DNA from: Candidatus Poribacteria bacterium
Lineage (GTDB): Bacteria; Poribacteria; WGA-4E; WGA-3G
Length of the DNA stretch: 64,000 bases
Assembly: GCA_964291315.2 (NCBI GenBank)
Contig: OZ219750.1
Coordinates: 586,351 to 650,350, forward strand
Direction: 5' to 3'
Below the pieces are notes generated by a model. It was given only the letters and a program-made list of their open reading frames with translations, did not search any database and was not told the DNA's origin. The position numbers and the translations under genes are program-made. Of this stretch, positions 5,307-20,645 are shown one piece after another; the stretch's first letter is position 1; every line of letters starts with the position of its first letter.

Positions 5307-6326
5307 CTATGCTGTGCCGAGGTACCGATCTCGGCCTTGCACTAGAGCTTCTATTTTCCTGTCCACTACAGAGCGTTGGAGCATCCAAAAGCCGCAGTCC
5401 GGATGCACCCAACCAATCCGTCCTCCTCCCAACTTCTGTTCTGCTTTTTCTATGCTGACTGCTACATCATCAGGTGTCTCAATTGGATTAACTTTTACGT
5501 CAATCACCCCAATACCAAGAACGATGTCTGACGAGACTGCTTTGAGTGCTTCTAAGTCTGCCTCGGGACGGTGTTTGATCTCTAAAACAAGGTGGTTACA
5601 TCGAAGCATGTTTAAGAAGTCTATGAGAGCAGCCCAGTTCCCTTTCTGGATGACCTGTCCTCCGTAGTTGCCGAAGCAAAAATGAACTGCCTTTTCCCCG
5701 TTAAACGCGTCTAAGACAATATTAATCGCCTCAGCGGCGCGAGGTCCGTCTTCTGGGTTCCCCGGTATATTTGCTTCGTCTATTTGAAGGCACACACAGT
5801 CCAGCTCGCGCACTTGTGCAGCTAATGCTTGTGCCAAGTCCGTTAGCAGTGCATCAAAGTTGCCGTAATGCTTATCTAGTAGTGTCCGAGCAAGCATGTA
5901 GGGACTTGTTACTGTAAATTTGATATCTTTACCGGCAACACTTACAGCTCGCTCACAGTCAGAAACAAGGTTTAATGTACCTTCGCCTAACGCACCTTCA
6001 ACGATGCCTGCGGGCTTTGCACGAAACGACATCGTTTGCATCTGTCTGAATTCATACCATTCTTGTCGTCCGACTTCTGTTCTAACACCAGAAAGTGGTC
6101 GAATGAAATAGTCGATCATTCCGTTGGTGTTTGGATGGTTGGCATCAAACCGATAGAGTTCGCCGTCGGTCGGTAGTTCAATGCCGTGTTGTCGTTGCGT
6201 ATCTACAACAACTCGGGTGGCATCAAGAAGGGTTTGCTCCGTTGGTATTGATGAGAGCCACATTGGCACCGGATAGGAGCCGACAGTTGTTGTCAAAATT
6301 TCTGGTTTTTTGGATATATTTTTCAC
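5307..6326 (-). CDS. Cobalamin-independent methionine synthase II family protein (catalytic barrel only)
   Basis: TTVGSYP, TDGE, QIDE, zinc ligands HFCFGN, E and PDCG. Confidence 0.85.
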   Translation of the reverse strand: MKNISKKPEILTTTVGSYPVPMWLSSIPTEQTLLDATRVVVDTQRQHGIELPTDGELYRFDANHPNTNGMIDYFIRPLSGVRTEVGRQEWYEFRQMQTMSFRAKPAGIVEGALGEGTLNLVSDCERAVSVAGKDIKFTVTSPYMLARTLLDKHYGNFDALLTDLAQALAAQVRELDCVCLQIDEANIPGNPEDGPRAAEAINIVLDAFNGEKAVHFCFGNYGGQVIQKGNWAALIDFLNMLRCNHLVLEIKHRPEADLEALKAVSSDIVLGIGVIDVKVNPIETPDDVAVSIEKAEQKLGGGRIGWVHPDCGFWMLQRSVVDRKIEALVQGRDRYLGTA

Positions 6327-6334
6327 GGATTAAC

Positions 6335-7345
6335 TTAGTTGTCCACCAGCTCAAAAGATTCGAGTTCAAAAACAGTTTCTACTGTGACATCGTCTCGCGT
6401 CTGTGCCTGTGTAAATCTAATGATACCGACATCTGGCGCGACCCATTTTTTCACGACGGTAATATCAAGCGGGAAATTTTGGTTTTCTATATCAAATCCC
6501 CATCTAAAAGACTCTTGAATTTGAAAGACATGATCAAAAGTTCCGGCGGGGACAGTCGCTGTCTCTTCTGAAAGCACTTCAAATTCGTCAATACCTTCAC
6601 CAATCGGAAAGAGTTCCGGGACTAATTGTGCCTGAAATTTGACTTGCCATTTATCACCTGGAATGAGTGGAAATTGATAAAGTGGAAGGAACGGGACGAA
6701 TAGGATTGTATCACTCGTTCCTGATGTGGTATTCTGTGCGTGTTGTAAGATCTGTGAGATCTCACCGTTTTCATCAACCTTCGTACCGAGGTAAGAGTAG
6801 TTTACAACGTTTTCTAATCCTTCAGCCTTACTAGATTTCTGAAGGACGAAACTGTCAATAGTGTTTCCGCTCGCGCGTTGAATCTGGATGGTGTCCACGA
6901 TTTCAAACGTAATTTCATTACCACTTGCGTCTTTATAGTGCCAAACATTTCCGACTGCCAAGGGATAATAGTCTCCAGGGCGTGTTCTCCACACTTGGAT
7001 ATCAAGTGTACTCTTTGTAGTGTTTTCACCATCTGTGACTGTAACTGCAATCTGGTATTTTCGTTCGGTTTGTGGTGCCTGCCAGAGGGCACCAGAGGCG
7101 TTTTCCGTTAATTCTCCGTCTGTGGTAGACCAAGTATATGATAAAGTATCATTCTCAAGATCAGCGGCTTTCAGATGGATTTGCACTTCTGTTCCAGGTG
7201 CAACGACATCTGCTTCAGATTCAAATGTTAAAATGCTCGGTGCGCGGTTGCTGTCACTCGGGGTCCCTTCACCGCAGCCCGCGACGACACTAATGAGCAA
7301 AACCCAAAGGATTTTCCAAGCGTTGGTTGCTTTTTTGCTCAGCAT
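6335..7345 (-). CDS. Hypothetical lipoprotein with an Ig/PKD-like N-terminal domain
   Basis: Lipobox VAGC; NRAPSI...AADLENDTLSYTW; YYPLAVGNVWHY; TVPAGTF; WVAPDVGII. Confidence 0.7.
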   Translation of the reverse strand: MLSKKATNAWKILWVLLISVVAGCGEGTPSDSNRAPSILTFESEADVVAPGTEVQIHLKAADLENDTLSYTWSTTDGELTENASGALWQAPQTERKYQIAVTVTDGENTTKSTLDIQVWRTRPGDYYPLAVGNVWHYKDASGNEITFEIVDTIQIQRASGNTIDSFVLQKSSKAEGLENVVNYSYLGTKVDENGEISQILQHAQNTTSGTSDTILFVPFLPLYQFPLIPGDKWQVKFQAQLVPELFPIGEGIDEFEVLSEETATVPAGTFDHVFQIQESFRWGFDIENQNFPLDITVVKKWVAPDVGIIRFTQAQTRDDVTVETVFELESFELVDN

Positions 7346-7418
7346 TGTATTTCACCCCATATATGCGCCTTTGCCACACAATACCCATAAGCTCCGGTGC
7401 TAGGTTCGCTGGGAAGTA

Positions 7419-7442
7419 TCTTGGTCAGGCAAGATACTCGCT
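7419..7442. terminator. Hairpin immediately downstream of the PhyH gene (probable terminator)
   Basis: AGTATCTTG-GTCAGG-CAAGATACT perfect 9-bp stem; coordinates approximate. Confidence 0.4.
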
Positions 7443-7446
7443 TTTC

Positions 7447-8190
7447 TCATGAGCGCAAAGGTTTTCCACGTAAGACTTCTCTGCATTGGGTTTCACCGTT
7501 TCCTGTTATATTGTAAGCAAAAGTGTTCATCAATCGATCGTTTTCTGAGTTGTTTGGGGCAGAACCGTGGATAATGAGGGCATTAAAAAACACACCATCC
7601 CCTGGTTCCATTTCCACAGCAACGGCATCTTCACGTTCTTGGTAGTGCCCGGGTAAAAATACCCCAAATGTTTGCTGTTTCTGTTCATGCTCTTGTAGCC
7701 CCCAATTATGGCTTCCAGGCACGAACTGTATACACCCGTTCTCAAGATTCGCTTTGCTTATGGCTAATTGACAGTTGATCATCACCGGTTTGTTATTATC
7801 ATTTTTCCAGTACGCGTAATCCTGATGCCATGGAATAGCGGTACCATCGCCGCCTGCTTTTGGCAGCAATTTGCTGTGATAGAGTGAAATGTTTCCGCCC
7901 ATTAATGCTTCTAATATATTCAAAACTTCATTAGATCGGAGCAGACGATTGAGTGTTCGACTCACTAGTTCACTATGCATTAACTGCTTGATACGCGGTG
8001 GGTGATTCTCTGAGTCGTTGTAGACTTCCCAAGAAATTCCAACCCCCTCTGCAGGGTGTTCAGCCATACGATTGTGTATATCTTCAATCTCGACCCGGAT
8101 TCGCGAGAGGTCTTCTGAAGAAACAAGTCTTTTTTTTAAGAAATAACCGTTTGTTTCATAGAATTTCAATTCTTGATGCGTAAGTCCCAT
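7447..8190 (-). CDS. Phytanoyl-CoA dioxygenase (PhyH) family Fe(II)/2OG oxygenase
   Basis: WHQD, ENGCIQFVPGSH, HGSAPNNSENDR. Confidence 0.9.
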   Translation of the reverse strand: MGLTHQELKFYETNGYFLKKRLVSSEDLSRIRVEIEDIHNRMAEHPAEGVGISWEVYNDSENHPPRIKQLMHSELVSRTLNRLLRSNEVLNILEALMGGNISLYHSKLLPKAGGDGTAIPWHQDYAYWKNDNNKPVMINCQLAISKANLENGCIQFVPGSHNWGLQEHEQKQQTFGVFLPGHYQEREDAVAVEMEPGDGVFFNALIIHGSAPNNSENDRLMNTFAYNITGNGETQCREVLRGKPLRS

Positions 8191-8536
8191 ACAATTTCTC
8201 CTTATCCTATTGAGTGGAACATCGGTCGCATTTCTAGTTGTACACTTGATTCGTAAAGTGCTACCGACTCCTCCTCAAAGATTATACAATTTTAAAGTAT
8301 ACATCAAACCTTCAGAAAAATCAAAGTATTTTCGAGTAAACTGTGTCTTTAACCACATCATCTCGAAAAATGGTTTACTTTCTTTCTAACTCCTGCTAAA
8401 ATAGGAATAGGTTGGATTTGTGTTCTTTTAGTTGATTTCTAGGTGTAAGCATCTGCTTGCCCCTGTTTCGAGTGCCGTTTTGCGCCACGTTCCAAGTTCT
8501 TCTGAGTGAATGCTGGGAAAGGGAGTTAAAATTGCT

Positions 8537-8881
8537 ATGAACTATACACTTGAAAATTGCCAAAAACTTGTAGATGACTGGATACATACTTTTGGAGTCC
8601 GCTATTTTTCAGAGTTAACCAATACCGCTATCCTCATGGAAGAAGTAGGAGAATTGGCACGGATTATGGCGCGTCAATACGGTGAACAGAGTTTCAAAAA
8701 GAACGAGAAAGACTTGGATCTCGGTGAAGAGATGGCGGATATTCTTTTTGTACTGATTTGTCTTGCAAATCAAGCAGGCGTTGAACTTGAGGTGGCATTC
8801 AAAAAGTCTATGGAAAAGAAGACACGCCGCGATAAAGAACGACACAACGAAAACTCCAAACTATTGGAAAAAACAGTGTAG
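8537..8881 (+). CDS. MazG-like nucleotide pyrophosphohydrolase (YpjD-like)
   Basis: LMEEVGELAR...GEQSFK...LGEEMADILFVLICLANQ. Confidence 0.9.
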   Translation: MNYTLENCQKLVDDWIHTFGVRYFSELTNTAILMEEVGELARIMARQYGEQSFKKNEKDLDLGEEMADILFVLICLANQAGVELEVAFKKSMEKKTRRDKERHNENSKLLEKTV

Positions 8882-8909
8882 TCTCATGGCCTGCTCAAGG
8901 AGATCGACA

Positions 8910-11705
8910 ATGACGCTCCCTAAAAACCATATGTTTTTCTTGTTCAGTTTGTTTTTTCTCGTTAGTGGGTGCACACTTTTCCCCAAAAAAACGTCTACTT
9001 CGGTGGTAGTTGACCCGCTTGTTGAGCGAAACCGCCAGTGGCGCGAATACGTTGAAGCTGGCAATGATAAATTGAAACAAGGAAATCTCCAAGACGCTCT
9101 TACTGCTTATGCGCATGCTGTCGCAATTCGTCCGGACTCTAGTGACGTACATTACAAGATTGCAGAGATATATTTTCAACTTGAAGAGTACGAAAACGCA
9201 AGGGACGCTTTTCTTGCTTTTCTGACGCTGAAACCGAATAATGTCACAGCTCTGAATTACGTCGGGTACATTTCTGAGAAACTGAGTAACTATGCTGCTG
9301 CTGCCGAATACTACGAACGGGTTTTGGAAATTTCGGCTGATAACCTATATGCCTTGAATCATCTCGGTTTATCTTATAAACAGCTAAAGCGTTTCGATGA
9401 AGGTGTAGCGGTGCTTCACAGAGCGTTGTCGATAGATCCGAGATGTGAACGGCCCGAATGCAGAAATTTGCATAACTACTTGGGGCTAATTTATCTCGGA
9501 CAGGATAAAATTGGTGAGGCTATCGCAGAATTCCGGGAGTCAATTCGGTTATTTCCGACAGATACGTGGGCAAGACAACAATTGGCAGCGATTTATGAGA
9601 ATCACCAGCGTTACTTTGAAGCTCAGCTGCAATACCAGCAGCTTTTGAAGATTGAACCAGACAACCTACTTGCCCTCACACGACTTCAAGCACTTTCCGA
9701 ACTGAATATCAACCCAGTGCAGCTCCTAGATGTGCTTCCTGTTACACTTCTGCATCCGGATGTTGAGTCCATTGTTGCAAATGCTCCGGACGCGAGTGAT
9801 TATCCGAACTCCGATACTCTCGTTTTGTTCAACCATTTCAGCCATGATGTTTTACCGACAGGACAATCGCGTTATACAACGCATCAGGTCGTTAAAATTC
9901 TTACTGAAAGGGGCATCCAAAGATATGGAGATATTGCTATTCCTTACCAACCTGCATCGCAAAATATTGGGGTTAATATAGCAAGAACAATCATAGCAGA
10001 TGGCACAGTTCTTCAACCGCCTAGCGAAGCTTATAATGATGTAACCCCTCCCGGGTTATTGGCCTATAATCTCTATTCAGACACGATGTGGAAGGTAATC
10101 TCTATGGTTGGTCTCGCCCCGGGGGTTTGTATTGAGTATAAAGTAACGCTTGAGGATAAAGTCGCTGGTGGTAAAACGTGGATTACAGGAGGTTATAATT
10201 TTCAGTCGACAGAGGCGACCCTTGAAACGAGTTACGCCCTTCAGATACCGAGAAAATGGCCTCTTCAGTGGCAGATTGCTAACATCCCGTTGCAAAACTC
10301 TTTAAAGCCGCAGGTTTCCTATACGGAGAATGATACCGTCATCTATGTTTGGAAATATGGCGAAACTCCTGCGCTGGAACTAGAGGAAGGGATGCCGCAT
10401 GTTAACAACGTTGTGCCACGCTTGCGTTATACTTCTATTACCGATTGGAGTGATATCTATAGGTGGTATAAGGAACTCGCGAAAGATAGGTATACACCAA
10501 ATGCTGATATTGAGGAAAAAGTCCGGCAATTAATAAGAGATCTAGAAACGAATGAAGCAAAGATACGCGCTATCTACCATTTCGTTGCCTCAAACATCCG
10601 TTATGTTGGCATTGAGCTTGGACAAGGTGCTTATCAACCGTCGCGTGCCGCCGAAGTTTTTCAGATGCAGTATGGGGACTGCAAAGACAAAACAACGCTC
10701 CTAATTTCCATGCTTGATTTAGCGGGTATCAAAGCTTATCCTTGTTTGATCAGCATTGCACCACACGAACAAGTTGATGCGACCCTGCCACTTCTCAACC
10801 AGTTTAACCATATGATTGCTGCGGTACCTACCGGGATAGATACCTATATCTGGCTGGATGCAACGGCGACTTGTGATTATGGAGAGCTGCCGTATAGTAT
10901 CCAGGGACGCACCGGTTTCCTCATCTCTGATACACACGGCGTGTTCGTGGAGACACCTATTTTCCCGCCAGAATCCAATCGGCTTGTGAGTACAACGCAA
11001 TTGGCTGTAAACAGTAAAGGGGATGTGCAAGGCACCATTCATATTCGGACAAGTGGACAATACAGTCTAAATACTCGGTGGACCTATCAACAGATTCATC
11101 CGAGAACATTGAGAAAGACCTTAGCGAGTGAGCTCAGCCAGCAATTTCCGGGGATCCGGATAGAGTGGTGCAATATGTCCGACCTCAGTGATCTCACTGT
11201 GCCGGTGGAGATAGGTCTCGGTTTTCGAGCTGAGAATCATGCAAAAGTTCTTGGGAGCAGCATACTATTCCCTTTACCCATTGATGAATTCGCTGCATAT
11301 GCTGAAACTTTTGCTAATGAACAACGCACCTATTCACTGGATTTCGGGTATCCAATGCAAATTGAAAAAATAATTCATATCCAAATTCCTGATGGATGGA
11401 CGGCTGTTTTGCGAGAGGACATCCATCACGCAATAGAGATAGCAGAACTGAGTCGGCAGTACAGACAAGTTGAAAATGTCATCACATATAGACTTGTGTT
11501 TGCCCTTAAAAGTCGAACGCTTCCAGCGGACGCGTATACGGCGGCAAAATCGCTTTTTGTGTCGCTTGTGAGTGAAGATGGAAGTTGGTTATTACTAAAT
11601 AGGGATCAGCAGAGGGAAATATTAGAAGATCGAAAGGTTGGAAGGGCGTGTACCCAAAATTCCGATGTTCCATCTTTCCATCTAAATTCCGAAAGTTTCC
11701 GATAG
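8910..11705 (+). CDS. Lipoprotein with TPR repeats, DUF3857 and a transglutaminase-like domain
   Basis: RBS AAGGAG, lipobox VSGC, several TPRs, then IRYVGIE...GDCKDK...FNHMI...WLDAT (Cys-His-Asp triad). Confidence 0.85.
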   Translation: MTLPKNHMFFLFSLFFLVSGCTLFPKKTSTSVVVDPLVERNRQWREYVEAGNDKLKQGNLQDALTAYAHAVAIRPDSSDVHYKIAEIYFQLEEYENARDAFLAFLTLKPNNVTALNYVGYISEKLSNYAAAAEYYERVLEISADNLYALNHLGLSYKQLKRFDEGVAVLHRALSIDPRCERPECRNLHNYLGLIYLGQDKIGEAIAEFRESIRLFPTDTWARQQLAAIYENHQRYFEAQLQYQQLLKIEPDNLLALTRLQALSELNINPVQLLDVLPVTLLHPDVESIVANAPDASDYPNSDTLVLFNHFSHDVLPTGQSRYTTHQVVKILTERGIQRYGDIAIPYQPASQNIGVNIARTIIADGTVLQPPSEAYNDVTPPGLLAYNLYSDTMWKVISMVGLAPGVCIEYKVTLEDKVAGGKTWITGGYNFQSTEATLETSYALQIPRKWPLQWQIANIPLQNSLKPQVSYTENDTVIYVWKYGETPALELEEGMPHVNNVVPRLRYTSITDWSDIYRWYKELAKDRYTPNADIEEKVRQLIRDLETNEAKIRAIYHFVASNIRYVGIELGQGAYQPSRAAEVFQMQYGDCKDKTTLLISMLDLAGIKAYPCLISIAPHEQVDATLPLLNQFNHMIAAVPTGIDTYIWLDATATCDYGELPYSIQGRTGFLISDTHGVFVETPIFPPESNRLVSTTQLAVNSKGDVQGTIHIRTSGQYSLNTRWTYQQIHPRTLRKTLASELSQQFPGIRIEWCNMSDLSDLTVPVEIGLGFRAENHAKVLGSSILFPLPIDEFAAYAETFANEQRTYSLDFGYPMQIEKIIHIQIPDGWTAVLREDIHHAIEIAELSRQYRQVENVITYRLVFALKSRTLPADAYTAAKSLFVSLVSEDGSWLLLNRDQQREILEDRKVGRACTQNSDVPSFHLNSESFR

Positions 11706-11713
11706 TCCTAGGG

Positions 11714-12316
11714 TTAGTTTTTCACGTATTTCCATCCGTCGATCAAGACAGGCAATCCGCGAATGAGACACATTGTGACAGTTACAACAGATAAAATTAC
11801 ACCTGCCAATTTTAGACTGACAATCAATTCAGGATAGACACCGGAATTTTTGAGGGCTGTGACACCGCCGAGATAGAGAAAAGTAATTGTTTTCGCAATA
11901 CCATAAATGCTACGGCTCGCTCGCGAACTCGTGAGGGCTTGTGTCCACCTTGAGGACATCATTGTGTTTTCACCAAATGCGGTTTTCCCTTGTGCAAATG
12001 CAGCACTCCGCAAACCGTCTGTAAAGAAACCACGGGCGATTACGATAATTGGAATCCAGATTGGAATCAAACCCACAACGGCGAAGTAAACCCAGAAGAT
12101 ACATTCAACAATACGGTCACCCACTATATCGAACAGTGCTCCAAAATCCGAGGTCTGATTCAATTTTCGGGCAACATGACCGTCAACTGCATCGAGAAAT
12201 AAAATCAATCCAATCACGGCAACAAGCAGCATGTCTAAATAGACATGTTGTCCGAAGAGTGAAATCACGACGAATACCAAGATTAATCGGAAAAGCGTAA
12301 TCAGATTTGCAATCAT
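11714..12316 (-). CDS. CDP-alcohol phosphatidyltransferase (PgsA-like)
   Basis: ANLITLFR; DAVDGHVARKLNQTSDFGALFDIVGDR. Confidence 0.85.
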   Translation of the reverse strand: MIANLITLFRLILVFVVISLFGQHVYLDMLLVAVIGLILFLDAVDGHVARKLNQTSDFGALFDIVGDRIVECIFWVYFAVVGLIPIWIPIIVIARGFFTDGLRSAAFAQGKTAFGENTMMSSRWTQALTSSRASRSIYGIAKTITFLYLGGVTALKNSGVYPELIVSLKLAGVILSVVTVTMCLIRGLPVLIDGWKYVKN

Positions 12317-12464
12317 TTTTCTTCTCCTTTGTTGAGTGAGGGCTCCTGGGCCTCAGTTCTATTTGGGTTTAGTGTTTTCCTTGATTTGCCTTTGTTTTTT
12401 AAGTGTAACGTAACTATATTATTAAACGCAATGCTAATTCCACGAATGAAAGGAGACCTATTCT

Positions 12465-14060
12465 ATGAACAAAAATAGAAACCCTAACATTGTTCTTATT
12501 CTAAACGATGATATGGGTTTTTCTGACTTAAGCTGCTATGGTGGCGAAGTCTATACGCCGAACCTTGACCGGCTTGCCGCTGGTGGATTACGGTTTACGC
12601 AGTTTTACAATACCGCTCGGTGCTGTCCATCCCGTGCGTCTATGCTGACGGGGCTGCACCCGCACCAGACCGGAGTCGGACACATGATGAGCGACGACGG
12701 ACTTGAGGGCTATCGGGGCGATCTCAATGATAGATGTATCACTATTGCCGATGCGGTCCGTTCGGAAGGTTACTGCACATATATGAGCGGGAAATGGCAT
12801 ATCTCTCGGCATATTGGCGGAGACGGTCCCAAGCATAGTTGGCCCTGTCAATGCGGCTTTGACGAGTATTACGGGATTATCACGGGTGCAGCCAATTTCT
12901 GGAAGCCGAACACCCTTACCCGTAATAATACTTGTATCCAGCATAATGAACTTCCTGATGACTATTTTCTCACAGATGCTATTAGCAATGAAGCAGCAGC
13001 GTTTATCCAGAATCATACAGAAAAAACACCAGAGCGCCCATTCTTCACCTATGTTGCTTACACAGCACCACACTGGCCCCTTCATGCCCACGAAGAAGAT
13101 ATCGTACGCTATAATGGACGTTTCGCTGCCGGGTGGGACAAGCTGCGGGAAGAACGGCTCTCACGAATGCGGGCGATGAAGATTTTAGATGAGGCGTGGC
13201 AGCTCACCGCACGAGATCCTTCGCAGCCCCCTTGGAGGGAAGTGCAATATAAAAAGTGGAATCAGCGGCGTATGGAAGTCTACGCTGCGCAAATCACCCG
13301 GATGGATGTAGGGATAGGGCGAATTATCGACACGTTAGAGAAGACTGGACAGCTCGACAACACTCTCATCCTCTTCTTAGCTGATAACGGTGGTTGTGCC
13401 GAGGAACTCGGTGGCCCCCCGGCGCGACGCGACAGCGGTTCACTCATTAGTACTGAAACGACTTCTGATGGAAGACCTGTCTATCGTGGTAATGATCCAG
13501 ATATCATGCCCGGCCCTGAAACTACCTATCAGAGCTACGGCGTTCCCTGGGCCAACCTATCCAATACGCCGTTCCGTGAATACAAGCATTGGGTTCATGA
13601 GGGTGGTATTGCTACCCCGTTGATTGTCCATTGGCCGGATGCGATAAAAACAGTGGGGGAATTGTGCCGTCAGCCCGGACAACTTCCAGACATCATGGCG
13701 ACGTGCCTTGAGGTTTCAGGGGCAACCTATCCTGAAGAACACGATGGGAAACCGATTTTACCCTTAGAAGGAACGAGTTTAGTACCGATTTTCGCGGGGA
13801 AGAGCAACAATAAAGAGGTACTTTATTGGGAACATGAGGGCAATTGTGCAGTGCGTCAAGAGAATTGGAAACTGGTTTGCAAATTTCCGGGTGATTGGGA
13901 ACTCTACGATCTAGCCGCCGAACGCACAGAGATTAATGATCTTGCCGCCAAGCATCCGCGAAAACTCAGAGAACTCGTTGGACTTTACCGAGACTGGGGT
14001 AACCGTTGTCTTATCTATCCATGGGGCAAACTTCAAGAACTCCGCAGACAGCGGCGTTAA
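12465..14060 (+). CDS. Arylsulfatase
   Basis: PNIVLILNDDMG; CCPSRASMLTG formylglycine motif; GKWH; YTAPHWP. Confidence 0.92.
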   Translation: MNKNRNPNIVLILNDDMGFSDLSCYGGEVYTPNLDRLAAGGLRFTQFYNTARCCPSRASMLTGLHPHQTGVGHMMSDDGLEGYRGDLNDRCITIADAVRSEGYCTYMSGKWHISRHIGGDGPKHSWPCQCGFDEYYGIITGAANFWKPNTLTRNNTCIQHNELPDDYFLTDAISNEAAAFIQNHTEKTPERPFFTYVAYTAPHWPLHAHEEDIVRYNGRFAAGWDKLREERLSRMRAMKILDEAWQLTARDPSQPPWREVQYKKWNQRRMEVYAAQITRMDVGIGRIIDTLEKTGQLDNTLILFLADNGGCAEELGGPPARRDSGSLISTETTSDGRPVYRGNDPDIMPGPETTYQSYGVPWANLSNTPFREYKHWVHEGGIATPLIVHWPDAIKTVGELCRQPGQLPDIMATCLEVSGATYPEEHDGKPILPLEGTSLVPIFAGKSNNKEVLYWEHEGNCAVRQENWKLVCKFPGDWELYDLAAERTEINDLAAKHPRKLRELVGLYRDWGNRCLIYPWGKLQELRRQRR

Positions 14061-14196
14061 TACTTGCTGGGCCGCTTCGCTTTCAGATCGTTCCGCTTCG
14101 GTTATCAGTGCCAGGTTAGTGGCAGTAGGAAGATTCGCCTTATAGACTGATTGCTCAAAGGTGGCGTAGTAACTTGCTCGGACTATCGGCAACTAT

Positions 14197-15291
14197 TTAA
14201 ATACACGGAAGCATTTTCAAACAGACAGGGGTTGGTACTTCTGTTACGTGGCCTGTTGCAGTTAATTCCCCGGTTTCTTGGTTGACGGCAAACGTCACAA
14301 CAGTATCTGTCTGTTGATTCGCTGCAAAGAGGAATGTGCCTTCCGGATTCACAGCGAAGTTTCGCGGAGTTCTTCCTTGAGTGGATTCATAACCGATAGG
14401 ACTCAGCTCCCCCGTTTCTGCATCAATCGCGCAGATAGCGATACTATCGTGTCCACGGTTGGATCCATACAAGAATTTCCCGGAAGGGTGGACGTGAATA
14501 TCGGCGCAGTGGCTTCTGCCGTCGAAATCATCGGGAAGCGTGGAAACTGTCTGAAATTCTGTAAGTGTTCCCGCGTTCGCGTCATACCGGAAAGCAGTGA
14601 AAGTTGAATCCAATTCGTTAATCACGTATGCATATTCCTGATTGGGATGAAAGTCAAAGTGGCGGGGGCCAGCACCTGGATGCACGCGAGCCCACGGCTG
14701 TGTATTGGGCGTAAGTTTGCCATTTTCTGCGTCTAACTGATAAATAAGAATTTTATCAATCCCAAGGTCGGGCGAGAATGCGTAACAGCTGCTGGCATCG
14801 ATCATGATTGAGTGAGCGTGTGGTTCCATCTGCCGGTCTAGATTGACACTCGATCCTTCATGCTGGACAAAATCAGAGGCTTCGCCGAGCCGCCCGTCTG
14901 ATTCTATTGGGAAAGCTGCAACACTCCCACCTCCGTAATTCGCCACGAGCAGACATTTACCGGTAGCGTCCGCGCTCAGATGACAGGGGGCCCCCCCACT
15001 GGTCGAGCGTTGGTTGAGGTAACTAATCTCCCCTGTTTCTCGATGAATGTAGAATGCTGTGACGGCACCACTATTTTTGCCCTCAAACTCGTTGAGTTCG
15101 TTGACTGCAAAAAGATACTGCCCGCTCGGATGTATCTCCAAAAATGATGGATTCTCAACGCCTGTTATTTTGCTGCTGTATTCTAAGGCGCCGGTCGCGC
15201 CATCTAAGCGGTAGACGTAAATTCCCTCGCTGTCTCCGTGCGTATAGGTACCGACATAAACAAAATAGTCTTGGTGGTTCTGATTTGCCAT
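14197..15291 (-). CDS. pgl: 6-phosphogluconolactonase / cycloisomerase-2 family lactonase
   Basis: VYVGTYT, ANYGGGSV, PHAH, GPRH, SNRGHDSI, PRNF beta-propeller motifs. Confidence 0.85.
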   Translation of the reverse strand: MANQNHQDYFVYVGTYTHGDSEGIYVYRLDGATGALEYSSKITGVENPSFLEIHPSGQYLFAVNELNEFEGKNSGAVTAFYIHRETGEISYLNQRSTSGGAPCHLSADATGKCLLVANYGGGSVAAFPIESDGRLGEASDFVQHEGSSVNLDRQMEPHAHSIMIDASSCYAFSPDLGIDKILIYQLDAENGKLTPNTQPWARVHPGAGPRHFDFHPNQEYAYVINELDSTFTAFRYDANAGTLTEFQTVSTLPDDFDGRSHCADIHVHPSGKFLYGSNRGHDSIAICAIDAETGELSPIGYESTQGRTPRNFAVNPEGTFLFAANQQTDTVVTFAVNQETGELTATGHVTEVPTPVCLKMLPCI

Positions 15292-15302
15292 TGATAATCT
15301 CC

Positions 15303-16913
15303 TTATGAAACTTTAAGATGAATTGTTTTTTCTTCGCTCTCGCTATAACCGATGCGGATCGCTTTTGCTCGTACGGTAGTTTCGCCTTCTGGTATACGTA
15401 GCGGACCGGTATATAACTGCCAGCGTGTATCATCCCCTTGCTCGGTTGTGTAGGCAATTGATGCACCTTGTGTGGAGCAGTGGAGTTGTAAAGTGAAAGG
15501 TGTTGACCATTCGTAACCCTCGTGTACTACTGTTGTACCGGGTTGTTCGGTGTTAATCGGAATAAAGATAGGCCCCGCTGTTTGCGGCTGCGTACGGTCA
15601 GGATACCATTGCTTGACCATCTGCTCTTCGGATATGTCTCCCATGTCCCCGAAATCTGTCTGCCACTGTGACAGTGCATCGCGCATTCGTTTCAGCACAT
15701 CCTGATGTTCAGGGTCTGTCGCCAAATTGTTGAGTTCATATCTGTCTTTTTTGACATTGTAAAGTTCTTCAGCGGGACGTGGAGAGCGGAACATAACCGC
15801 CTCATCGCCCTCCAGTTTTCCCTCTGCATACAACCGCCACATTTCCTGCATAATCGGATGCCGATTACGATATGGAATCCAGAGCAGATATGGTTTTTCA
15901 GGGTAGTAATTTCTAATGTATTTATACTTTTTGTCACGTATAGCACGTACCATATCGTAAGATTCATCGTATCGGTCGCGCGTCGCGAAGATATATTCGC
16001 GTTCAACCTTTTCTGGCCCAAGGAAGGGGTGCCCTTGTAGATGTTCAGGTGACTTTACACCGCAGAGCGATAGAACTGTTGGACCGAGATCAATCAGACT
16101 GACTAATTGTTCGCTGACACTACCAGCGGTGAGCGCATCAGGCCACCTTACAATCAGTGGTATACGGATACCGGCATCATACGGCCACCGTTTTCCGCGA
16201 GGCAGTCCTTCACCGTGATCGCTCCAAAGAAAAACGATAGTATTCTCTACGAGGCCATCTTTTTCTAGTTGATCGAGGAGTTCTCCGACACGGGTATCAG
16301 CAGTTGCAATGTTATCATATTGGCGCGCCAATGCTTGCCGCGCTTTCGGTGTGTTGGGCAGATAGGGTGGTAATTGCACGGCATCAGGGTTTGTGGTTGT
16401 AGTCAAAGGACGGTCCCCGCGTTCCCACATACCGCTTTCGTGTGTAACCGTTGGGTTGAAAATTGAGAAAAATGGTTGACTTTCTTCGCGATTTCGCCAG
16501 TGTGCAGTGTCGCTACACTCATCCCATGCTGTGATAGGGGACGTAAACTGATAGTCGGTTTTGCTATTGTTCGTACAGTAATAACCTGCTCCTCTGAGGT
16601 ATTCGGTGAAGACCTTGACGTATGGAGGCGGGAGTGCTGAATATGGGGTTGGCAGTTTCGGCGTTTCCGCGTTCGTGTGTGTCGTTCGCATGTGGTGTGT
16701 ACCAATTGAGGTCTGATACATACCGGTAATGATTGCAGAACGGCTCGGTGCACAGACACCAGCAGTCGAAAATGCATTCGGAAACCGGCACCCACCAGTG
16801 GCAAGCCGATCAATATTGGGCGTACGGGCAAGCGTGTCCCCGTAACAACCAAAACGAGGCGTTGTATCCTCTAAAGAAATCCAGAGAATATTTGGGCGGT
16901 CTGGCGTGTTCAT
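15303..16913 (-). CDS. Sulfatase with C-terminal FN3-associated/chitobiase-like domain
   Basis: CAPSRSAIITG; SDHG; C-terminal TQGASIAYTT...W.LY.GP...AKAIRIGY. Confidence 0.9.
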   Translation of the reverse strand: MNTPDRPNILWISLEDTTPRFGCYGDTLARTPNIDRLATGGCRFPNAFSTAGVCAPSRSAIITGMYQTSIGTHHMRTTHTNAETPKLPTPYSALPPPYVKVFTEYLRGAGYYCTNNSKTDYQFTSPITAWDECSDTAHWRNREESQPFFSIFNPTVTHESGMWERGDRPLTTTTNPDAVQLPPYLPNTPKARQALARQYDNIATADTRVGELLDQLEKDGLVENTIVFLWSDHGEGLPRGKRWPYDAGIRIPLIVRWPDALTAGSVSEQLVSLIDLGPTVLSLCGVKSPEHLQGHPFLGPEKVEREYIFATRDRYDESYDMVRAIRDKKYKYIRNYYPEKPYLLWIPYRNRHPIMQEMWRLYAEGKLEGDEAVMFRSPRPAEELYNVKKDRYELNNLATDPEHQDVLKRMRDALSQWQTDFGDMGDISEEQMVKQWYPDRTQPQTAGPIFIPINTEQPGTTVVHEGYEWSTPFTLQLHCSTQGASIAYTTEQGDDTRWQLYTGPLRIPEGETTVRAKAIRIGYSESEEKTIHLKVS

Positions 16914-17033
16914 TGTAACTCCAATTTTTTATTAATGATCGTACTCCAAGCAGCGATTTAAGTCAAGATATATCTCGGAATTATCCAGGGCCATTCAATT
17001 CCGATGCGGACACATTCCACAAGTTTAGGAGAT

Positions 17034-17143
17034 AAAATTTAAAAATTTGATAAGTATTTATAGATAAACTGTAATTTCAACAGCAGTAAAAATTTAAAAA
17101 CTTGACGAATGTTTACGGATGAAGTACAATTTCCACAGGAATC
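17034..17143 (+). repeat. Degenerate tandem duplication (55-bp period), each unit carrying a sigma70-like promoter
   Basis: AAAATTTAAAAATTTGATAAGTATTTATAGATAAACTGTAATTTCAACAG versus AAAATTTAAAAACTTGACGAATGTTTACGGATGAAGTACAATTTCCACAG. Confidence 0.75.
17102..17130 (+). promoter_or_regulatory. sigma70-type promoter of the peptide/ABC operon
   Basis: TTGACG-N17-TACAAT. Confidence 0.7.
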
Positions 17144-17307
17144 TGAAAAAGAGATAAAAAATTTGACATTTTATATTTCGTTGATGAGCTAAATATTTAT
17201 CAAGCTCGCGTTATATAGAATAGAGATGGATTGCCAAGGCTTCAAAACACCTTTCAGATTTTGCCTTCCATACAGCACAGCAATCCGCGAAAACAGAGAA
17301 GTTTAAA

Positions 17308-17472
17308 ATGTTGAAAGCGTACTCCAAGAAAGTTCAAGCCAAGAAGGCATACGCCCCACCTGAATTTTTCCCATTGGGTTGTGCCACGTTTCTCGCCCAC
17401 GGTTCTTGTGATGTTGGGTGTAACTATGAAAAAAGTGGGAATCAGAAAACAATCTTTAGTTCCAATCGGTAA
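17308..17472 (+). CDS. Putative RiPP precursor peptide (lasso/RRE-type leader), 54 aa; not in the ORF track
   Basis: MLKAYSKKVQAKKAYAPPEFFPLGCATFLAHGSCDVGCNYEKSGNQKTIFSSNR. Y-x-x-P-x-F-x-x-x-G-x5-A-x-G spacing matches the lasso leader consensus; stop is 19 nt before the ABC exporter start. Confidence 0.6.
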   Translation: MLKAYSKKVQAKKAYAPPEFFPLGCATFLAHGSCDVGCNYEKSGNQKTIFSSNR

Positions 17473-17491
17473 TGTGTAGGGGGACAAAAAT

Positions 17492-19267
17492 TTGAACGCG
17501 TCCAAAAAGAAACTGATTTTGGGGAGTGGCAGCATAGCGATCCGCTTGTTGGGTTATCTCAAACCCTATTGGGGTATCGCCCTTTTATGTGTGCTCCTCC
17601 AGATCGTTTACCGGGCTACCTACTTGGTCAACCCATGGATAGAAGGGCAGTTGCTGGACCGGGTCTTTGGAGCGAAAGATGCCGATTTTCTACCTGTCCT
17701 TGTGAGTTTGTGGATGGGTATCGCCCTTGCGACCTATCTCACGAATCTGGTTTTGGCGTATCTTCTGAGAAACGTCACTTGTCAAACCCGCCGAGATATG
17801 CAACTGCAGGTTTACCAACATTTGCGGTTCCTCCCGTGCCGTTTCTACGATAATCACACAACGGGGCAGATCATGGCTAACATCAGTTCCGATACAGAGT
17901 CGGCTGCGGGAGGGATTTTGTCAAGTGGCTGGATGCTCCTCTCGGGGATTGAATTTGTCATTACTCTGACGTTTGTGTTCGCGGTGAATCCATGGTTGGG
18001 GCTTTTTAGTATTCCGTTTGCCTTTGCCGTTGTTGGGCTCCCCTTTCTATTTCGAAGGCCTGTGCAAAACGCTTCGAAGCAGGTCTTGCAGGAGAAAGAG
18101 AGCATTTCGTCAAGGCTTCAAGAAGGGATTGCGGGCTCGAGAGAGATAAAAGCCCTCGGTCATGAGCTGCGAGACATGGGTCGCATTCGGCGTTCAATAG
18201 ACACCCTCATTCGTGCTGAACTCTATCAAACCTTAATCGGGGGCCTGACGACCCTTGGCCCCCTTGCTTCTTGGTTGGGCCATCCGCTTTTCTTTCTCAT
18301 CGGTGGGAAAATGGTGCTGGCCGGACACATCAGCGTCGGTTTTTTGTGGATGGCAAACCGTTATTTACATCTGGTCACCCTGCCGCTACATCGGGTCGCC
18401 CAGGATGAATATCCAAAGCTTCTCCGAACCGGGGAGGGGGCAAAACGGGTGTTCGCTTTCCTCGAAAATCGAGCCGAACCCAACGATAGTATTGAGGCTG
18501 CTGACTTGCAAGGAAGTGTCCGGTTTGAAGGTGTCCATTTCAACTACAATGGAACTACAGAAGTCCTTCAGAACGTCGGTTTTGAGGTGCAGCCCGGTCA
18601 AACCGCGGCACTCGTGGGCCCCAGCGGTGCAGGGAAAAGCACGATTCTCAACCTGCTGCCGCGTTTCTACGAACCCACGCAAGGACACATCTTGGTTGAT
18701 GAACACGATATCACGACACTTAAATTGAGAACCTTGAGATCGCAGATCGGCACGGTGTTTCAAGATCCTTATCTCTTTTCAGGTTCGATTGAAGAAAATA
18801 TCCGAATGGGTGCTCGACACCCGGAAAACGTGAAAAGGGAGGACATCATAGCCGCTGCCACCGCTGCCACCGCCCACGGCTTTATCACGCAGCTCAAAGA
18901 GGGCTACGCCACAGAGATAGGCGAGCGGGGCATCAAACTCTCCGGGGGTGAGCGGCAACGGATTGCCATCGCTCGTTCCCTGATTCGGAATCCAAAGATT
19001 CTCCTTCTCGATGAAGCCACTTCCGCACTCGACTCGGAGACAGAGCGGGGTGTCACGGAAGCGTTAGAACGACTGATGAAGGGCAGGACCTCGTTTGTAA
19101 TTGCACACCGATTGTCTACTGTGCTGAGCGCGGATGTGATTCTTGCCGTGGAAAATGGGAAAATTGTGGAACAAGGCACACATCAGGAGTTGATAGCCCG
19201 CGGCGGGCTCTATGCCCGGTTGTATCGCTTACAATTTGCGACCCCCGGCGATCCAAACGATCAATAA
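17492..19267 (+). CDS. ABC exporter, fused TMD + NBD (MsbA/peptide-exporter type)
   Basis: 6-TM domain; GPSGAGKST; LSGGERQR; LLLDEATSALD; no N-terminal C39 peptidase domain. Confidence 0.92.
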   Translation: MNASKKKLILGSGSIAIRLLGYLKPYWGIALLCVLLQIVYRATYLVNPWIEGQLLDRVFGAKDADFLPVLVSLWMGIALATYLTNLVLAYLLRNVTCQTRRDMQLQVYQHLRFLPCRFYDNHTTGQIMANISSDTESAAGGILSSGWMLLSGIEFVITLTFVFAVNPWLGLFSIPFAFAVVGLPFLFRRPVQNASKQVLQEKESISSRLQEGIAGSREIKALGHELRDMGRIRRSIDTLIRAELYQTLIGGLTTLGPLASWLGHPLFFLIGGKMVLAGHISVGFLWMANRYLHLVTLPLHRVAQDEYPKLLRTGEGAKRVFAFLENRAEPNDSIEAADLQGSVRFEGVHFNYNGTTEVLQNVGFEVQPGQTAALVGPSGAGKSTILNLLPRFYEPTQGHILVDEHDITTLKLRTLRSQIGTVFQDPYLFSGSIEENIRMGARHPENVKREDIIAAATAATAHGFITQLKEGYATEIGERGIKLSGGERQRIAIARSLIRNPKILLLDEATSALDSETERGVTEALERLMKGRTSFVIAHRLSTVLSADVILAVENGKIVEQGTHQELIARGGLYARLYRLQFATPGDPNDQ

Positions 19268-19343
19268 CTGGTTCATCCACTAGTTCTTCGTTCTAGGATT
19301 CTCAAGAAAACGAAAAACTCTCTTCACCTTTTGGAGACATCCG

Positions 19344-20645
19344 ATGCATTTCACCGAAGCTTTCTTCATGAGCTGCACCGCAATCCTGGCAAATAAGATG
19401 CGTTCATTGCTGACGACGCTTGGCATTCTCATCGGGGTTGCCTCGGTGCTGGCAATGATAGCGATCGGTGATGGTGCGAAGGAAATTGTGCGACAAGACG
19501 CACAGAAATTGGGCGGTGCTAATCAGTTTATAATGTTCCGTTCGGGATATGAATGGAAAGGGAATAAATGGGTGAAAGTCCGTCATAACGAATACCTCGA
19601 ATATGGCGATGTCTTGGCGATTGCAGCGGAATGTCCATCGGTGAGTGCTGTCACCCCGAGAATTTGGGACTCGGGCGGTGTGCTAATTCAAGCCGCAGGT
19701 GGCACTGAAACCCGCGCAGGATATAATGGCGTAGATGCTACCTATCAAACTGTCATGGATTGGGATCTCCAAGAAGGACGTTTTATCACCGCTGAAGATG
19801 TGGAGAACGCAACGAAAGTCTGTGTCCTCGGGGATGAAGTCTCGACGGCTCTCTTTGGAGAGAACTCCGCTTTGGGACAGGAAATCAAAATCGTAAGAGA
19901 TGTCGGCCACTACGATCGATATGGTCGAAAAGCGGGGCGGCGTGCCGCAGAACGTTTCACGGTTGTCGGGACCTTTGTGCCGAGAGGCAGGACTCTTCGG
20001 TTCGGATCGAGTTTCGACACGCTTGTCTTCCTCCCGATATCTACCGTGCAAAAACGCTTCACAGGTAATGATCGGATTCAGCGCGTCTTAGTCTTCGTGC
20101 ATAGGGTTGAGGATATGCCAAAGGCGATTGAGGAAGTAAAAGCGGTTATCCGCAAACGACACAGAAACCAAGATAGCTTCGTCCATATCTTTGAGATGCG
20201 AAAAGGTATAGCACAGCTAGAAAAAATAAGCAAAGTGATCAAGATTGCCCTCGGCAGCATCGCCGGTTTTTCGCTGCTTGTGGGTGGTATTGGTATTATG
20301 AATATGATGTTAGTTGCTGTAAACGAACGCACGCGCGAAATCGGGCTTCGGAAGGCAGTTGGTGCCAAACGCCGGGACATTCTGCTGCAGTTTCTCATAG
20401 AAGCAATGATGATGTGTGGTGTAGGAGGCGTGCTGGGTATTGGGTTCGGGATTTTCGCAGGTGAAGGCATGGCACACCTTGCTGTCAACATCGTCAAAAT
20501 CGTCCTCGAATGGCCGGCGGTTCTCTCGACAGAATGGATATTGATTTCGGTCACCTTTTCTGCGGTCATCGGTATCTCGTTTGGGCTGTATCCTGCGATA
20601 AAAGCCGCATCGCTCTCCCCAATGGAGGCACTACGTGCGGATTAA
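19344..20645 (+). CDS. MacB/FtsX-family ABC permease
   Basis: RSLLTTLGILIGVASV; VGGIGIMNMML..V.ERTREIGLRKAVGA; FGLYPA.KAA.L.P.EALR. Confidence 0.92.
   Translation: MHFTEAFFMSCTAILANKMRSLLTTLGILIGVASVLAMIAIGDGAKEIVRQDAQKLGGANQFIMFRSGYEWKGNKWVKVRHNEYLEYGDVLAIAAECPSVSAVTPRIWDSGGVLIQAAGGTETRAGYNGVDATYQTVMDWDLQEGRFITAEDVENATKVCVLGDEVSTALFGENSALGQEIKIVRDVGHYDRYGRKAGRRAAERFTVVGTFVPRGRTLRFGSSFDTLVFLPISTVQKRFTGNDRIQRVLVFVHRVEDMPKAIEEVKAVIRKRHRNQDSFVHIFEMRKGIAQLEKISKVIKIALGSIAGFSLLVGGIGIMNMMLVAVNERTREIGLRKAVGAKRRDILLQFLIEAMMMCGVGGVLGIGFGIFAGEGMAHLAVNIVKIVLEWPAVLSTEWILISVTFSAVIGISFGLYPAIKAASLSPMEALRAD

What the first reader, a model, noticed from the sequence alone, without database searches (positions are those of the whole stretch)
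17308..20645. Unlisted RiPP-like precursor heading an ABC exporter / MacB operon with no maturases
Seen in the sequence: a 54-aa ORF below the ORF-track cutoff, MLKAYSKKVQAKKA-YAPPEFFPLGCATFLAH-GSCDVGCNYEKSGNQKTIFSSNR. It lies between a strong promoter and a fused ABC exporter (19-nt gap), followed by a MacB permease. Established: lasso-peptide and other RRE/PqqD-dependent precursors carry YxxPxLxxxGxxxxxTxG leaders and are exported by peptidase-less ABC transporters. Here Y, P, a hydrophobic F, G and the core G1 sit at exactly those spacings. Deviations are Ala instead of Thr at -2, acidic residues at core positions 4 and 10 (canonical ring closure is at 7-9) and a CxxxC in the core. Inference: this is a non-canonical, possibly disulfide- or thioether-containing lasso-like or radical-SAM RiPP matured in trans, or a decaying cluster.
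Basis: partly seen in the sequence, partly recalled or inferred. Interest (0 to 1): 0.85.

Follow-up and report, generated by a model that had tools for sequence, protein, structure and literature searches.

The report
Orphaned lasso-peptide precursor with exporter
A small gene in a sponge-symbiont (Poribacteria) genome is the leftover precursor of a lasso-peptide gene cluster whose tailoring enzymes have been deleted, while the export pump next to it is still kept intact by selection.

Summary
The 54-aa ORF (17308-17472,+), the ABC exporter 19 nt downstream (17492-19267) and the MacB-type permease (19344-20645) are all there as described. The ORF is a real gene. It belongs to a Poribacteria-only family of precursors (4 other genomes, 17 metagenome proteins). 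Their leader matches the lasso motif exactly: Tyr-17, Pro-14, Leu-12, Thr-2, Gly+1. In one congener (G022) the orthologous precursor and exporter (75% identical) head a complete lasso cluster: A, D, B1 (PqqD/RRE), two glycosyltransferases, C (cyclase), B2 (peptidase). This genome (95% complete, 4 contigs) has no cyclase, no B2 and no cognate B1. The exporter is followed directly by the permease, across a spacer that still resembles the D-B1 spacer. Three other genomes show other stages of the same decay. The window's leader has 5 changes where 20 relatives have 0-1, including Thr-2 to Ala. The exporter, in contrast, is under purifying selection (dN/dS 0.09-0.21), also in genomes with no lasso genes nearby. 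Verdict: an orphaned precursor plus exporter, the remnant of a decayed, probably glycosylated, lasso cluster. Maturation in trans is not supported. That the exporter is kept as an orphan immunity or efflux pump is inference. Ordinary kind, instructive case.

The parts
17027..17167 (+). Promoter-like region. Two tandem 55-nt units (17027-17081, 17082-17136), each with an A/T tract and a -35-like hexamer. The best sigma-70 consensus match lies at 17102-17130. A third AAAAATTTGACA lies at 17157-17167.
   Evidence: Consensus matches only; no transcript data were available (one search lists no RNA run).
17197..17213 (+). One copy of a genome-wide repeat (17-mer TTATCAAGCTCGCGTTA plus about 25 conserved bases to its left). 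It lies 95 nt upstream of the precursor start codon. Its role is unknown.
   Evidence: 66 copies with at most 2 mismatches in the 4.40-Mb genome. There is no orientation bias towards downstream ORFs (48 of 66 against 57 of 66 on the other side).
17308..17472 (+). Precursor gene A (54 aa): a lasso-type leader (Tyr-17, Pro-14, Phe-12, Gly-8, Ala-2) and a core starting at Gly1, with Asp4 and Glu10. It is orphaned and its leader has drifted.
17492..19267 (+). Gene D: a fused TMD+NBD ABC exporter (591 aa), ortholog of the exporter of the intact lasso cluster of G022 (75% identity). It is intact and under purifying selection.
19268..19343 (+). 76-nt spacer between D and the MacB permease. Its first ~50 nt align with the D-B1 spacers of G022 and G046, so it is the presumed deletion scar where B1, GT, GT, C and B2 once lay.
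   Evidence: weak similarity, short sequences; junction confirmed in contigs of 4 runs.
19344..20645 (+). MacB-type permease (433 aa; MacB_PCD + FtsX) with no adjacent ATPase. It is one of 9 paralogs in this genome (E <= 1e-60), and its closest homologs (71-76% identity) follow the precursor remnants in G126, G011 and G046.

Best explanation
The locus is the remnant of a lasso-peptide biosynthetic cluster of Candidatus Poribacteria. The ancestral order was A (precursor), D (ABC exporter), B1 (PqqD/RRE leader-binding protein), two glycosyltransferases, C (Asn-synthetase-like macrolactam cyclase) and B2 (transglutaminase-like leader peptidase). That order survives in congener G022. In this genome a deletion removed B1 through B2 and joined D to a MacB-type permease. 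The genome has no cyclase and no peptidase, so the 54-aa product cannot be turned into a lasso peptide (inferred from the absence of the genes). The precursor gene persists between the promoter and D and is drifting. It has five leader substitutions, including the Thr-2 recognition residue, and its Shine-Dalgarno is weaker than in G022 and G126. D and the permease are still functional genes under purifying selection. The most likely present role of D (inference, about 40%) is efflux or immunity against lasso peptides made by co-resident Poribacteria. The alternative is a more general export role.
For: (1) Family and motif. The same small ORF occurs in 5 of 112 genomes of the family and in 5 of 176 of the phylum, own genome included. 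There are also 17 metagenome proteins. In G022 the leader reads YAKPELYPLGRATFLTHG, which places Tyr, Pro, Leu and Thr at -17, -14, -12 and -2 before Gly1. These are the positions given for lasso leaders in PMC10368454 (passages read).
(2) Coding constraint. Leader dN/dS is 0.03-0.09 among G022, G126 and G046.
(3) Intact cluster in G022. Gene order is A 60 aa, D, PqqD (56.5 bits), two GT4-type glycosyltransferases, Asn_synthase (102 bits) and Transglut_core3 (36 bits). B2 passes the NCBIfam lasso_biosyn_B2 cut-off (42 against 33).
(4) Orthology. D of the window is identical to D of G022 at 441 of 589 residues. All Poribacteria D genes form one clade.
(5) Loss here. tblastn of G022 B1, C and B2 against the whole genome gives no hit at E <= 0.1. 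Transglut_core3, lasso_biosyn_B2 and the lasso cyclase model give nothing above their cut-offs. Asn_synthase gives only three partial matches at 22.5-28.7 bits, covering about model positions 12-112 of 354.
(6) Decay series. G046 has A, D, a frameshifted B1 fragment (residues 1-81) and MacB fragments. G126 and G011 have A, a fragment of D matching only about residues 6-41, and MacB. B1 fragments follow D in 3 of 14 further Poribacteria loci.
(7) Drift. The window's leader has 5 mismatches to the family consensus; 20 other members have 0-1. Thr-2 is present in 20 of 20 others.
(8) D is maintained. dN/dS is 0.15-0.21 against 7 orthologs. It is 0.09-0.15 within a clade of 6 loci with no lasso gene within 10 kb. 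D orthologs occur in 23 of 112 genomes, but this cyclase in only 1 of 112.
(9) The junction is real in contigs of 4 runs.
Against: The A ORF is still open in all five genomes, and four of those lack the cyclase. This could mean a maturase-independent role rather than recent loss. Ala at -2 is not by itself disqualifying: PMC10368454 (passage read) cites predicted precursors with Ile, Val or Ala at -2. The genome is 95.2% complete, so a gene on an unassembled piece cannot be strictly excluded. The leader comparison rests on 18 codons. D is a generic ABCB-type half-transporter. Its best PDB matches are ABCB4/ABCB1 (P-glycoprotein), and among bacterial half-transporters Sav1866, MsbA and TM287/288. 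No chain named as a lasso-peptide exporter is among the 60 shown. Its link to lasso export therefore rests on synteny alone. No expression data exist. The immunity role is untested.
Confidence: 0.8

Rival explanations
1. The peptide is still functional without lasso enzymes. It could be an unmodified secreted or signalling peptide exported by D. Or it could be an upstream ORF whose translation sets the expression of D and the permease, given the 19-nt gap and shared promoter.
For: The ORF is intact in 5 of 5 genomes that carry it, although 4 of these lack the cyclase. It lies between the only promoter-like region and D. G126 and G011 keep a consensus leader even though D beside it is truncated.
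Against: The conserved part is exactly the RRE- and B2-recognition leader, which has no known use without those enzymes. In this genome that leader is the part that has changed (5 substitutions). A is absent from 14 of 14 other Poribacteria D loci, so D does not need it. No transcript or peptide data exist.
Confidence: 0.12
2. The precursor is matured in trans by enzymes encoded elsewhere: a non-canonical RRE partner, or a radical-SAM/SPASM enzyme acting on the CxxxC.
For: The genome has one PqqD-domain protein (155 aa, C1:192233-192700). It also has three SPASM radical-SAM proteins, one of them unassigned.
Against: The PqqD gene lies in an operon with an FtsX-type permease, an ABC ATPase and unknown proteins. 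That operon is conserved in G022 and G011 whatever their lasso state, and it has no cyclase, peptidase or radical-SAM gene beside it. One SPASM protein is an anaerobic sulfatase maturase (525 bits against a cut-off of 349) and one is AhbD/NirJ2-like. All three are on another contig. The Cys residues are not conserved in the family. The cis maturases demonstrably existed and were deleted.
Confidence: 0.04
3. The maturase genes exist but are missing from the assembly (unbinned plasmid or contig), so the cluster is split rather than decayed.
For: Estimated completeness is 95.2% in 4 contigs.
Against: In the intact cluster the maturases lie directly after D. Here D is followed after 76 nt by the permease on one contig, and contigs of 4 runs agree. 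Three other genomes, of 1 to 760 contigs, show truncated B1 or D at the same place. That is the signature of deletion, not of relocation.
Confidence: 0.03
4. Chance ORF, not a gene.
For: It is short, has no Pfam or NCBIfam family, and has a weak Shine-Dalgarno.
Against: Protein-level conservation with synonymous change, in 4 other genomes and 17 metagenome proteins.
Confidence: 0.01

Closest known systems
Lasso-peptide clusters with split B protein (A, B1 = PqqD-like RRE, B2 = transglutaminase-like peptidase, C = Asn-synthetase-like cyclase, D = ABC exporter); leader motif YxxPxL at -17 to -12 with Thr-2 (PMC10368454, passages read)
   Same: The precursor family has exactly this leader spacing. 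The ortholog locus in G022 has all five gene types.
   Different: In this genome only A and D remain. The window's A has Ala at -2 and Phe at -12, and no Asp or Glu at core positions 7-9. The gene order A-D-B1-...-C-B2, with the exporter second, and the two glycosyltransferases are features of this family.
Microcin J25 system (McjABCD), in which the ABC exporter McjD also gives self-immunity (recalled knowledge, not from a call)
   Same: A peptidase-less ABC half-transporter encoded in the lasso cluster. It is the model for an export and immunity role of D.
   Different: No particular sequence closeness was shown. The best PDB matches of D are ABCB4/ABCB1, Sav1866, MsbA and TM287/288, and no chain named as a lasso-peptide exporter is among the 60 shown. 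Here the exporter persists without the producer genes.
Glycosylated and otherwise tailored lasso peptides: PMC11912497 and PMC9266682 (search listings only); sponge-microbiome lasso gene-cluster families with glyco-, sulfo- and nucleotidyl-transferases in PMC9426513 (passage read)
   Same: The intact G022 cluster carries two GT4-type glycosyltransferases between B1 and C and comes from a sponge symbiont.
   Different: The paper does not assign its lasso families to Poribacteria in the passages I read, and its supplementary tables were not available. Nothing of the tailoring part remains in this window.
Orphan immunity genes of bacteriocin systems: immunity or exporter genes kept without the toxin genes (recalled concept)
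   Same: D orthologs occur in 23 of 112 genomes against 1 of 112 with this cyclase. D is under purifying selection where no lasso gene is nearby.
   Different: Protection has not been tested. D could serve any export role.

Membership tests
Lasso-peptide precursor (A) | Leader with Tyr-17, Pro-14, Leu-12 (YxxPxL), the RRE-binding motif | tested here: met
   The window has Tyr, Pro and Phe at -17, -14 and -12 (Leu to Phe). Of the 20 relatives, all 20 have Tyr-17 and Leu-12 and 19 have Pro-14 (G046 has Ser). Positions as defined in PMC10368454.
Lasso-peptide precursor (A) | Thr (rarely Ile or Val) at -2 of the leader | tested here: not met
   The window has Ala. 20 of 20 relatives have Thr. PMC10368454 mentions predicted Ala-2 precursors, so this does not disqualify absolutely.
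Lasso-peptide precursor (A) | Small residue (Gly, Ala, Ser or Cys) at core position 1, and Asp or Glu at core position 7-9 as ring acceptor | tested here: inconclusive
   Gly1 is present. Acidic residues lie at 4 and 10 only. The conserved Glu-Lys of the family falls at position 9 or 10. Six members, the window included, have no Asp or Glu at 7-9. The 7-9 range is from PMC10368454.
Lasso-peptide precursor (A) | Encoded beside B (B1/B2) and C genes | tested here: not met
   None in the window or genome. Met for the ortholog in G022.
Functional lasso-peptide biosynthetic cluster | Asn-synthetase-like cyclase C present | tested here: not met
   No tblastn hit of G022 C at E <= 0.1. PF00733 gives only three partial matches at 22.5-28.7 bits, covering about model positions 12-112 of 354. 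NF033535 best hit is 14 bits against a cut-off of 525.
Functional lasso-peptide biosynthetic cluster | Transglutaminase-like leader peptidase B/B2 present | tested here: not met
   PF13471 best hit is 20.5 bits against a cut-off of 26, inside a 490-aa frame. NF033537 best hit is 15.4 bits against a cut-off of 33. No tblastn hit.
Functional lasso-peptide biosynthetic cluster | RRE (PqqD-like B1) cognate to the leader | tested here: not met
   No tblastn hit of G022 B1. The single PqqD-domain gene lies in an unrelated operon.
Lasso-cluster ABC exporter (D) | Fused TMD+NBD half-transporter without a C39 peptidase domain, encoded in a lasso cluster | tested here: met
   Pfam architecture. 75% identical ortholog inside the intact G022 cluster.
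Lasso-cluster ABC exporter (D) | Exports, or confers immunity to, the lasso peptide | not testable with these tools
   Only purifying selection could be shown.

The most novel reading that the evidence does not exclude
Two linked readings. (a) In Poribacteria the lasso exporter outlives the producer genes again and again: D in 23 of 112 genomes, this cyclase in 1 of 112, and at least three different deletion scars. The proposed reason is that it protects non-producers against lasso peptides made by co-resident relatives in the sponge. That would make it an orphan-immunity ('cheater') module, with the precursor gene carried along only because it sits between the promoter and the pump. (b) The family's invariant Glu-Lys lies at core position 10 in most members. 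In six members it is the only acidic residue within reach. One of these (P0010) seems to share a 21,854-nt contig with a cyclase (P0029). If so, the active members would close a 10-residue macrolactam ring, outside the canonical 7-9.
Probability: 0.25. Interest if true: 0.6.

Novelty: new member of a known kind. Interest (0 to 1): 0.35.

Why it matters
It turns an 'unlisted RiPP with no maturases' into a dated story. This is a previously unnamed Poribacteria-specific family of lasso precursors, probably glycosylated, with one intact cluster (G022) and several remnants. Genome mining of sponge symbionts should target the intact clusters, not this window. For evolution, it gives a clean natural series of cluster decay in an uncultured symbiont, in which the exporter is retained under selection. 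That makes the orphan-immunity idea testable. The position of the conserved Glu also raises a concrete question about ring size in this family.

Tried and rejected
Rfam scan of 16500-17900 at E <= 1 found nothing, so no known riboswitch or leader RNA lies upstream.

The opposite-strand ORF 17254-17535 (93 aa) has no Pfam hit and was dropped.

The cytidine-deaminase NCBIfam hits of the peptide (18 bits against cut-offs of 74 and 114) are noise.

The search for related loci with the G022 cyclase in genome contigs gave 28 pattern matches, none confirmed.

The search for related loci with the precursor alignment in genome contigs found only the three Poribacteria records already known. In metagenome contigs it gave one hit (L129), which is a chance match inside a long ORF and was rejected. 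The genomic context of the 17 metagenome precursors and 12 cyclases therefore could not be read. Their co-location is inferred only from identical longest-contig lengths (8749, 10618 and 21854).

Expression: no RNA holder is listed for the stretch.

Read laying used assembled contigs only, so it shows arrangement, not transcripts.

A search for a 10-residue lasso ring in print ('lasso peptide' + '10-membered') listed 8 papers. None is about such a ring by title, and none was opened. This one search does not show that it is unpublished.

A search for Poribacteria plus lasso peptide gave 3 papers. Passages were read in one of them (PMC9426513).

Complex prediction, structure prediction, fold search, the protein-atlas search and the search of protein representatives were not used, because no claim here depends on them.

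In one search I printed only tblastn rows above 35 bits at E <= 1e-4. The absence of A from the 14 loci was therefore checked again by motif regex and by nhmmer (only the window itself at E < 0.01).

MacB adjacency as evidence of a lasso role was rejected. The permease belongs to a family of 7-11 paralogs per genome at E <= 1e-60.
Full report
OBSERVATION. Nineteen bases later a TTG ORF (17492-19267, 591 aa) carries ABC_membrane and ABC_tran in one chain. At 19344-20645 lies a 433-aa MacB_PCD + FtsX permease. Upstream, a sulfatase gene runs the other way (15303-16913, -). The 394-nt intergenic region holds two tandem 55-nt units, each with an A/T tract and a -35-like hexamer. It also holds a third similar -35-like box and the best sigma-70 consensus match of the region, TTGACG-17-TACAAT at 17102-17130. 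This is consensus evidence only. No Rfam family matches there. The peptide has no Pfam or NCBIfam family.

ORGANISM AND RELATIVES. Record titles of the closest exporter homologs name Candidatus Poribacteria, which are sponge symbionts. The window is G000:C1:586351-650350, in a genome of 4.40 Mb, 4 contigs and 95.2% completeness. The small ORF recurs as protein in 5 of 112 genomes of the family and 5 of 176 of the phylum, own genome included: G000, G022, G011, G126 and G046. It was found in no other phylum of the genome collection. The large protein database holds 17 more members of 55-61 aa, all unnamed.

THE LEADER. In G022 the leader reads YAKPELYPLGRATFLTHG. That places Tyr, Pro, Leu and Thr at -17, -14, -12 and -2, followed by Gly1. 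These are the positions described for lasso-peptide leaders in PMC10368454 (passages read). Among G022, G126 and G046 the 18 leader codons differ mostly at synonymous sites, with dN/dS of 0.03-0.09. The ORF family is therefore a real, constrained coding gene.

THE INTACT CLUSTER. In G022 (locus L032) the precursor (6047-6229) is followed by six genes:
- an ABC exporter (6316-8088);
- a PqqD-domain protein (8147-8455, 56.5 bits);
- two GT4-type glycosyltransferases (8498-10123 and 10069-11853);
- an Asn_synthase-family protein (11844-13520, 102 bits);
- a Transglut_core3 protein (13567-14004, 36 bits).
The last of these passes NCBIfam's lasso_biosyn_B2 cut-off (42 against 33). The PqqD protein and the cyclase hit lasso models below their cut-offs. 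By gene content this is a complete lasso cluster, A-D-B1-GT-GT-C-B2, probably for a glycosylated product. The window's exporter is 75% identical to the G022 exporter (441 of 589). All Poribacteria homologs of it form one clade, apart from a 43%-identical paralog in this genome.

WHAT IS MISSING HERE. tblastn of G022's B1, C and B2 against the whole G000 genome gives no hit at E <= 0.1. The Pfam and NCBIfam models for the B2 peptidase and the lasso cyclase find nothing above their cut-offs in G000. Asn_synthase finds only three partial matches at 22.5-28.7 bits, covering about model positions 12-112 of 354. The same models do find the G022 genes.

The one PqqD-domain gene of G000 (155 aa, C1:192233-192700) lies between an ABC ATPase and unknown proteins, next to a 1224-aa FtsX-type permease. 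It has orthologs in G022 and G011, and no cyclase, peptidase or radical-SAM neighbour.

Three SPASM radical-SAM proteins lie on another contig. One is an anaerobic sulfatase maturase (525 bits against a cut-off of 349), fitting this sulfatase-rich genome. One is AhbD/NirJ2-like and one is unassigned. Maturation in trans thus has no candidate.

D ends at 19267 and the permease starts at 19344. The first ~50 nt of that spacer align with the D-B1 spacers of G022 and G046 (weak, short). Contigs from four public runs of one study cover the A-D and D-permease junctions in this arrangement. Two of the runs carry strain variants. The junction is therefore not an assembly artefact.

A SERIES OF DECAY. 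The other genomes show different stages.
- G046 has the precursor, with its N-terminus replaced and Pro-14 changed to Ser. It has an intact D, a B1 fragment broken by a frameshift (residues 1-57 and 57-81), and two fragments of the permease (residues 3-36 and 270-433).
- G126 and G011 have a precursor with a consensus leader, a fragment of D matching only about residues 6-41, and then the permease. G126 has a second, complete D elsewhere (L050).
- Among 14 further Poribacteria loci with a D ortholog, none has the precursor, as checked by tblastn, motif regex and nhmmer. Three keep a B1 fragment right after D (L044, L052, L053). None has C, B2 or the glycosyltransferases within 10 kb.
These states are scattered over the D tree. 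The linkage A-D-B1 is therefore ancestral to the clade, and the losses are repeated.

Across the 112 genomes, D orthologs (69-100% identity) occur in 23. The cyclase occurs at high identity in one, G022. Three other genomes have only 25-32%-identical Asn-synthase-like proteins. The family is nevertheless alive in nature: 12 cyclase homologs of 64-100% identity exist in the large database.

DRIFT OF THE PRECURSOR, CONSTRAINT ON THE PUMP. Against the family consensus the window's leader has five changes: Lys-15 to Pro, Leu-12 to Phe, Tyr-11 to Phe, Arg-7 to Cys and Thr-2 to Ala. The 20 other members have 0 or 1, and all 20 keep Thr-2. Leader dN/dS in pairs that include G000 is 0.17-0.85 (only 18 codons). 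The Shine-Dalgarno before the start codon is AGGAGA-like in G022 and AAGGAG-like in G126, but reads AGAGAAG here (by eye).

By contrast D has dN/dS of 0.15-0.21 against seven orthologs, and the permease 0.10-0.15 against four. Within a clade of six loci that have no lasso gene nearby, D still shows 0.09-0.15. The pump is therefore kept by selection independently of lasso biosynthesis, while the precursor in this genome looks released from constraint.

THE ODD CORE. The acidic residue at position 10 is not a peculiarity. A Glu-Lys pair is the one conserved feature of the ring region, and the Glu falls at core position 9 or 10. Six members, the window included, have no Asp or Glu at 7-9. One of them (P0010) has the same longest-contig length (21,854) as a cyclase homolog (P0029). 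Two further precursor/cyclase pairs share lengths of 8,749 and 10,618. Co-location is inferred from that alone. Whether active members close a 10-residue ring, outside the 7-9 stated in PMC10368454, is open. One literature search turned up no title on it.

MECHANISM. Shown: orthology to an intact lasso cluster; absence of the maturases; deletion scars in relatives; leader drift; selection on D. Inferred: the 54-aa product, if made at all, stays linear and is not a lasso peptide. The ORF persists because it lies between the promoter and the pump. D, perhaps together with the permease, serves efflux. The most attractive reading, which I put at about 40%, is immunity against lasso peptides produced by co-resident Poribacteria. 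This follows the model of the microcin J25 exporter, which also confers immunity (recalled). D itself is a generic ABCB-type half-transporter. Its best PDB matches are ABCB4/ABCB1, Sav1866, MsbA and TM287/288. The permease belongs to a family of 7-11 paralogs per genome, so its adjacency is weak evidence of a shared role.

COMPARISON AND NOVELTY. This is a member of the lasso-peptide kind, in a decayed state. Tailored lasso clusters with glycosyltransferases have been reported in sponge microbiomes (PMC9426513, passage read). Glycosylated lasso peptides are known (PMC11912497, listing only). New here are the Poribacteria-specific precursor family, the A-D-first gene order, the natural decay series with exporter retention, and the Glu9/Glu10 question. 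As a finding in this window it is ordinary (a remnant), so interest is 0.35.

LIMITS. There are no transcript or peptide data. The genome is 95% complete.

Noticed in passing
window 17197-17213 (17-mer; the element extends about 25 nt to the left). Further copies near window 58341 and 59681. 66 copies in G000.: A genome-wide intergenic repeat of about 45 nt, with 66 copies at <= 2 mismatches to the 17-mer in 4.40 Mb. One copy lies 95 nt upstream of the precursor start. No orientation bias towards downstream ORFs was seen (48 of 66 against 57 of 66). Its nature is unknown; it could be REP-like or regulatory.
   Followed up: partly
L049:11921-13648 and L049:14636-15859 (another Poribacteria chromosome, downstream of its D gene): Two neighbouring long ORFs combine an N-terminal ECF sigma-70 (regions 2 and 4) with a second module. 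One has a complete DNA polymerase III beta clamp (three domains). The other has a tubulin/FtsZ GTPase domain. These are either true fusions or an artefact of longest-ORF calling.
   Followed up: no
L032:8498-11853 (G022): Two large GT4-type glycosyltransferases (541 and 594 aa, 27% identical to each other) sit between B1 and C of the intact lasso cluster. This suggests a doubly or iteratively glycosylated lasso peptide.
   Followed up: partly
L044:9980-13664: A tandem duplication of the exporter D (two copies, 79-80% identical to the window's D). A MacB-like permease precedes it and a B1 fragment and an FGE-sulfatase gene follow it. A C39-peptidase + DUF1573 protein without an ABC part lies 3.5 kb further on.
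   Followed up: no
G000:C1:191382-199980 (outside the window): An operon with a 1224-aa FtsX/MacB_PCD permease, two proteins without a Pfam family (662 and 346 aa), a 155-aa PqqD-domain protein and an ABC ATPase. A PqqD domain in a transporter operon with no RiPP enzyme is unusual.
   Followed up: partly
window 12465-16913: Two sulfatase genes (one with a C-terminal chitobiase/hexosaminidase-type domain) flank a 7-bladed lactonase gene. This fits the sulfated-glycan degradation typical of Poribacteria.
   Followed up: no
L003:1817-3024 (G011): The MacB-type permease after the truncated D is read in two frames (residues 1-87 and 89-403). This is either a frameshift or an assembly error in a 760-contig MAG.
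   Followed up: no
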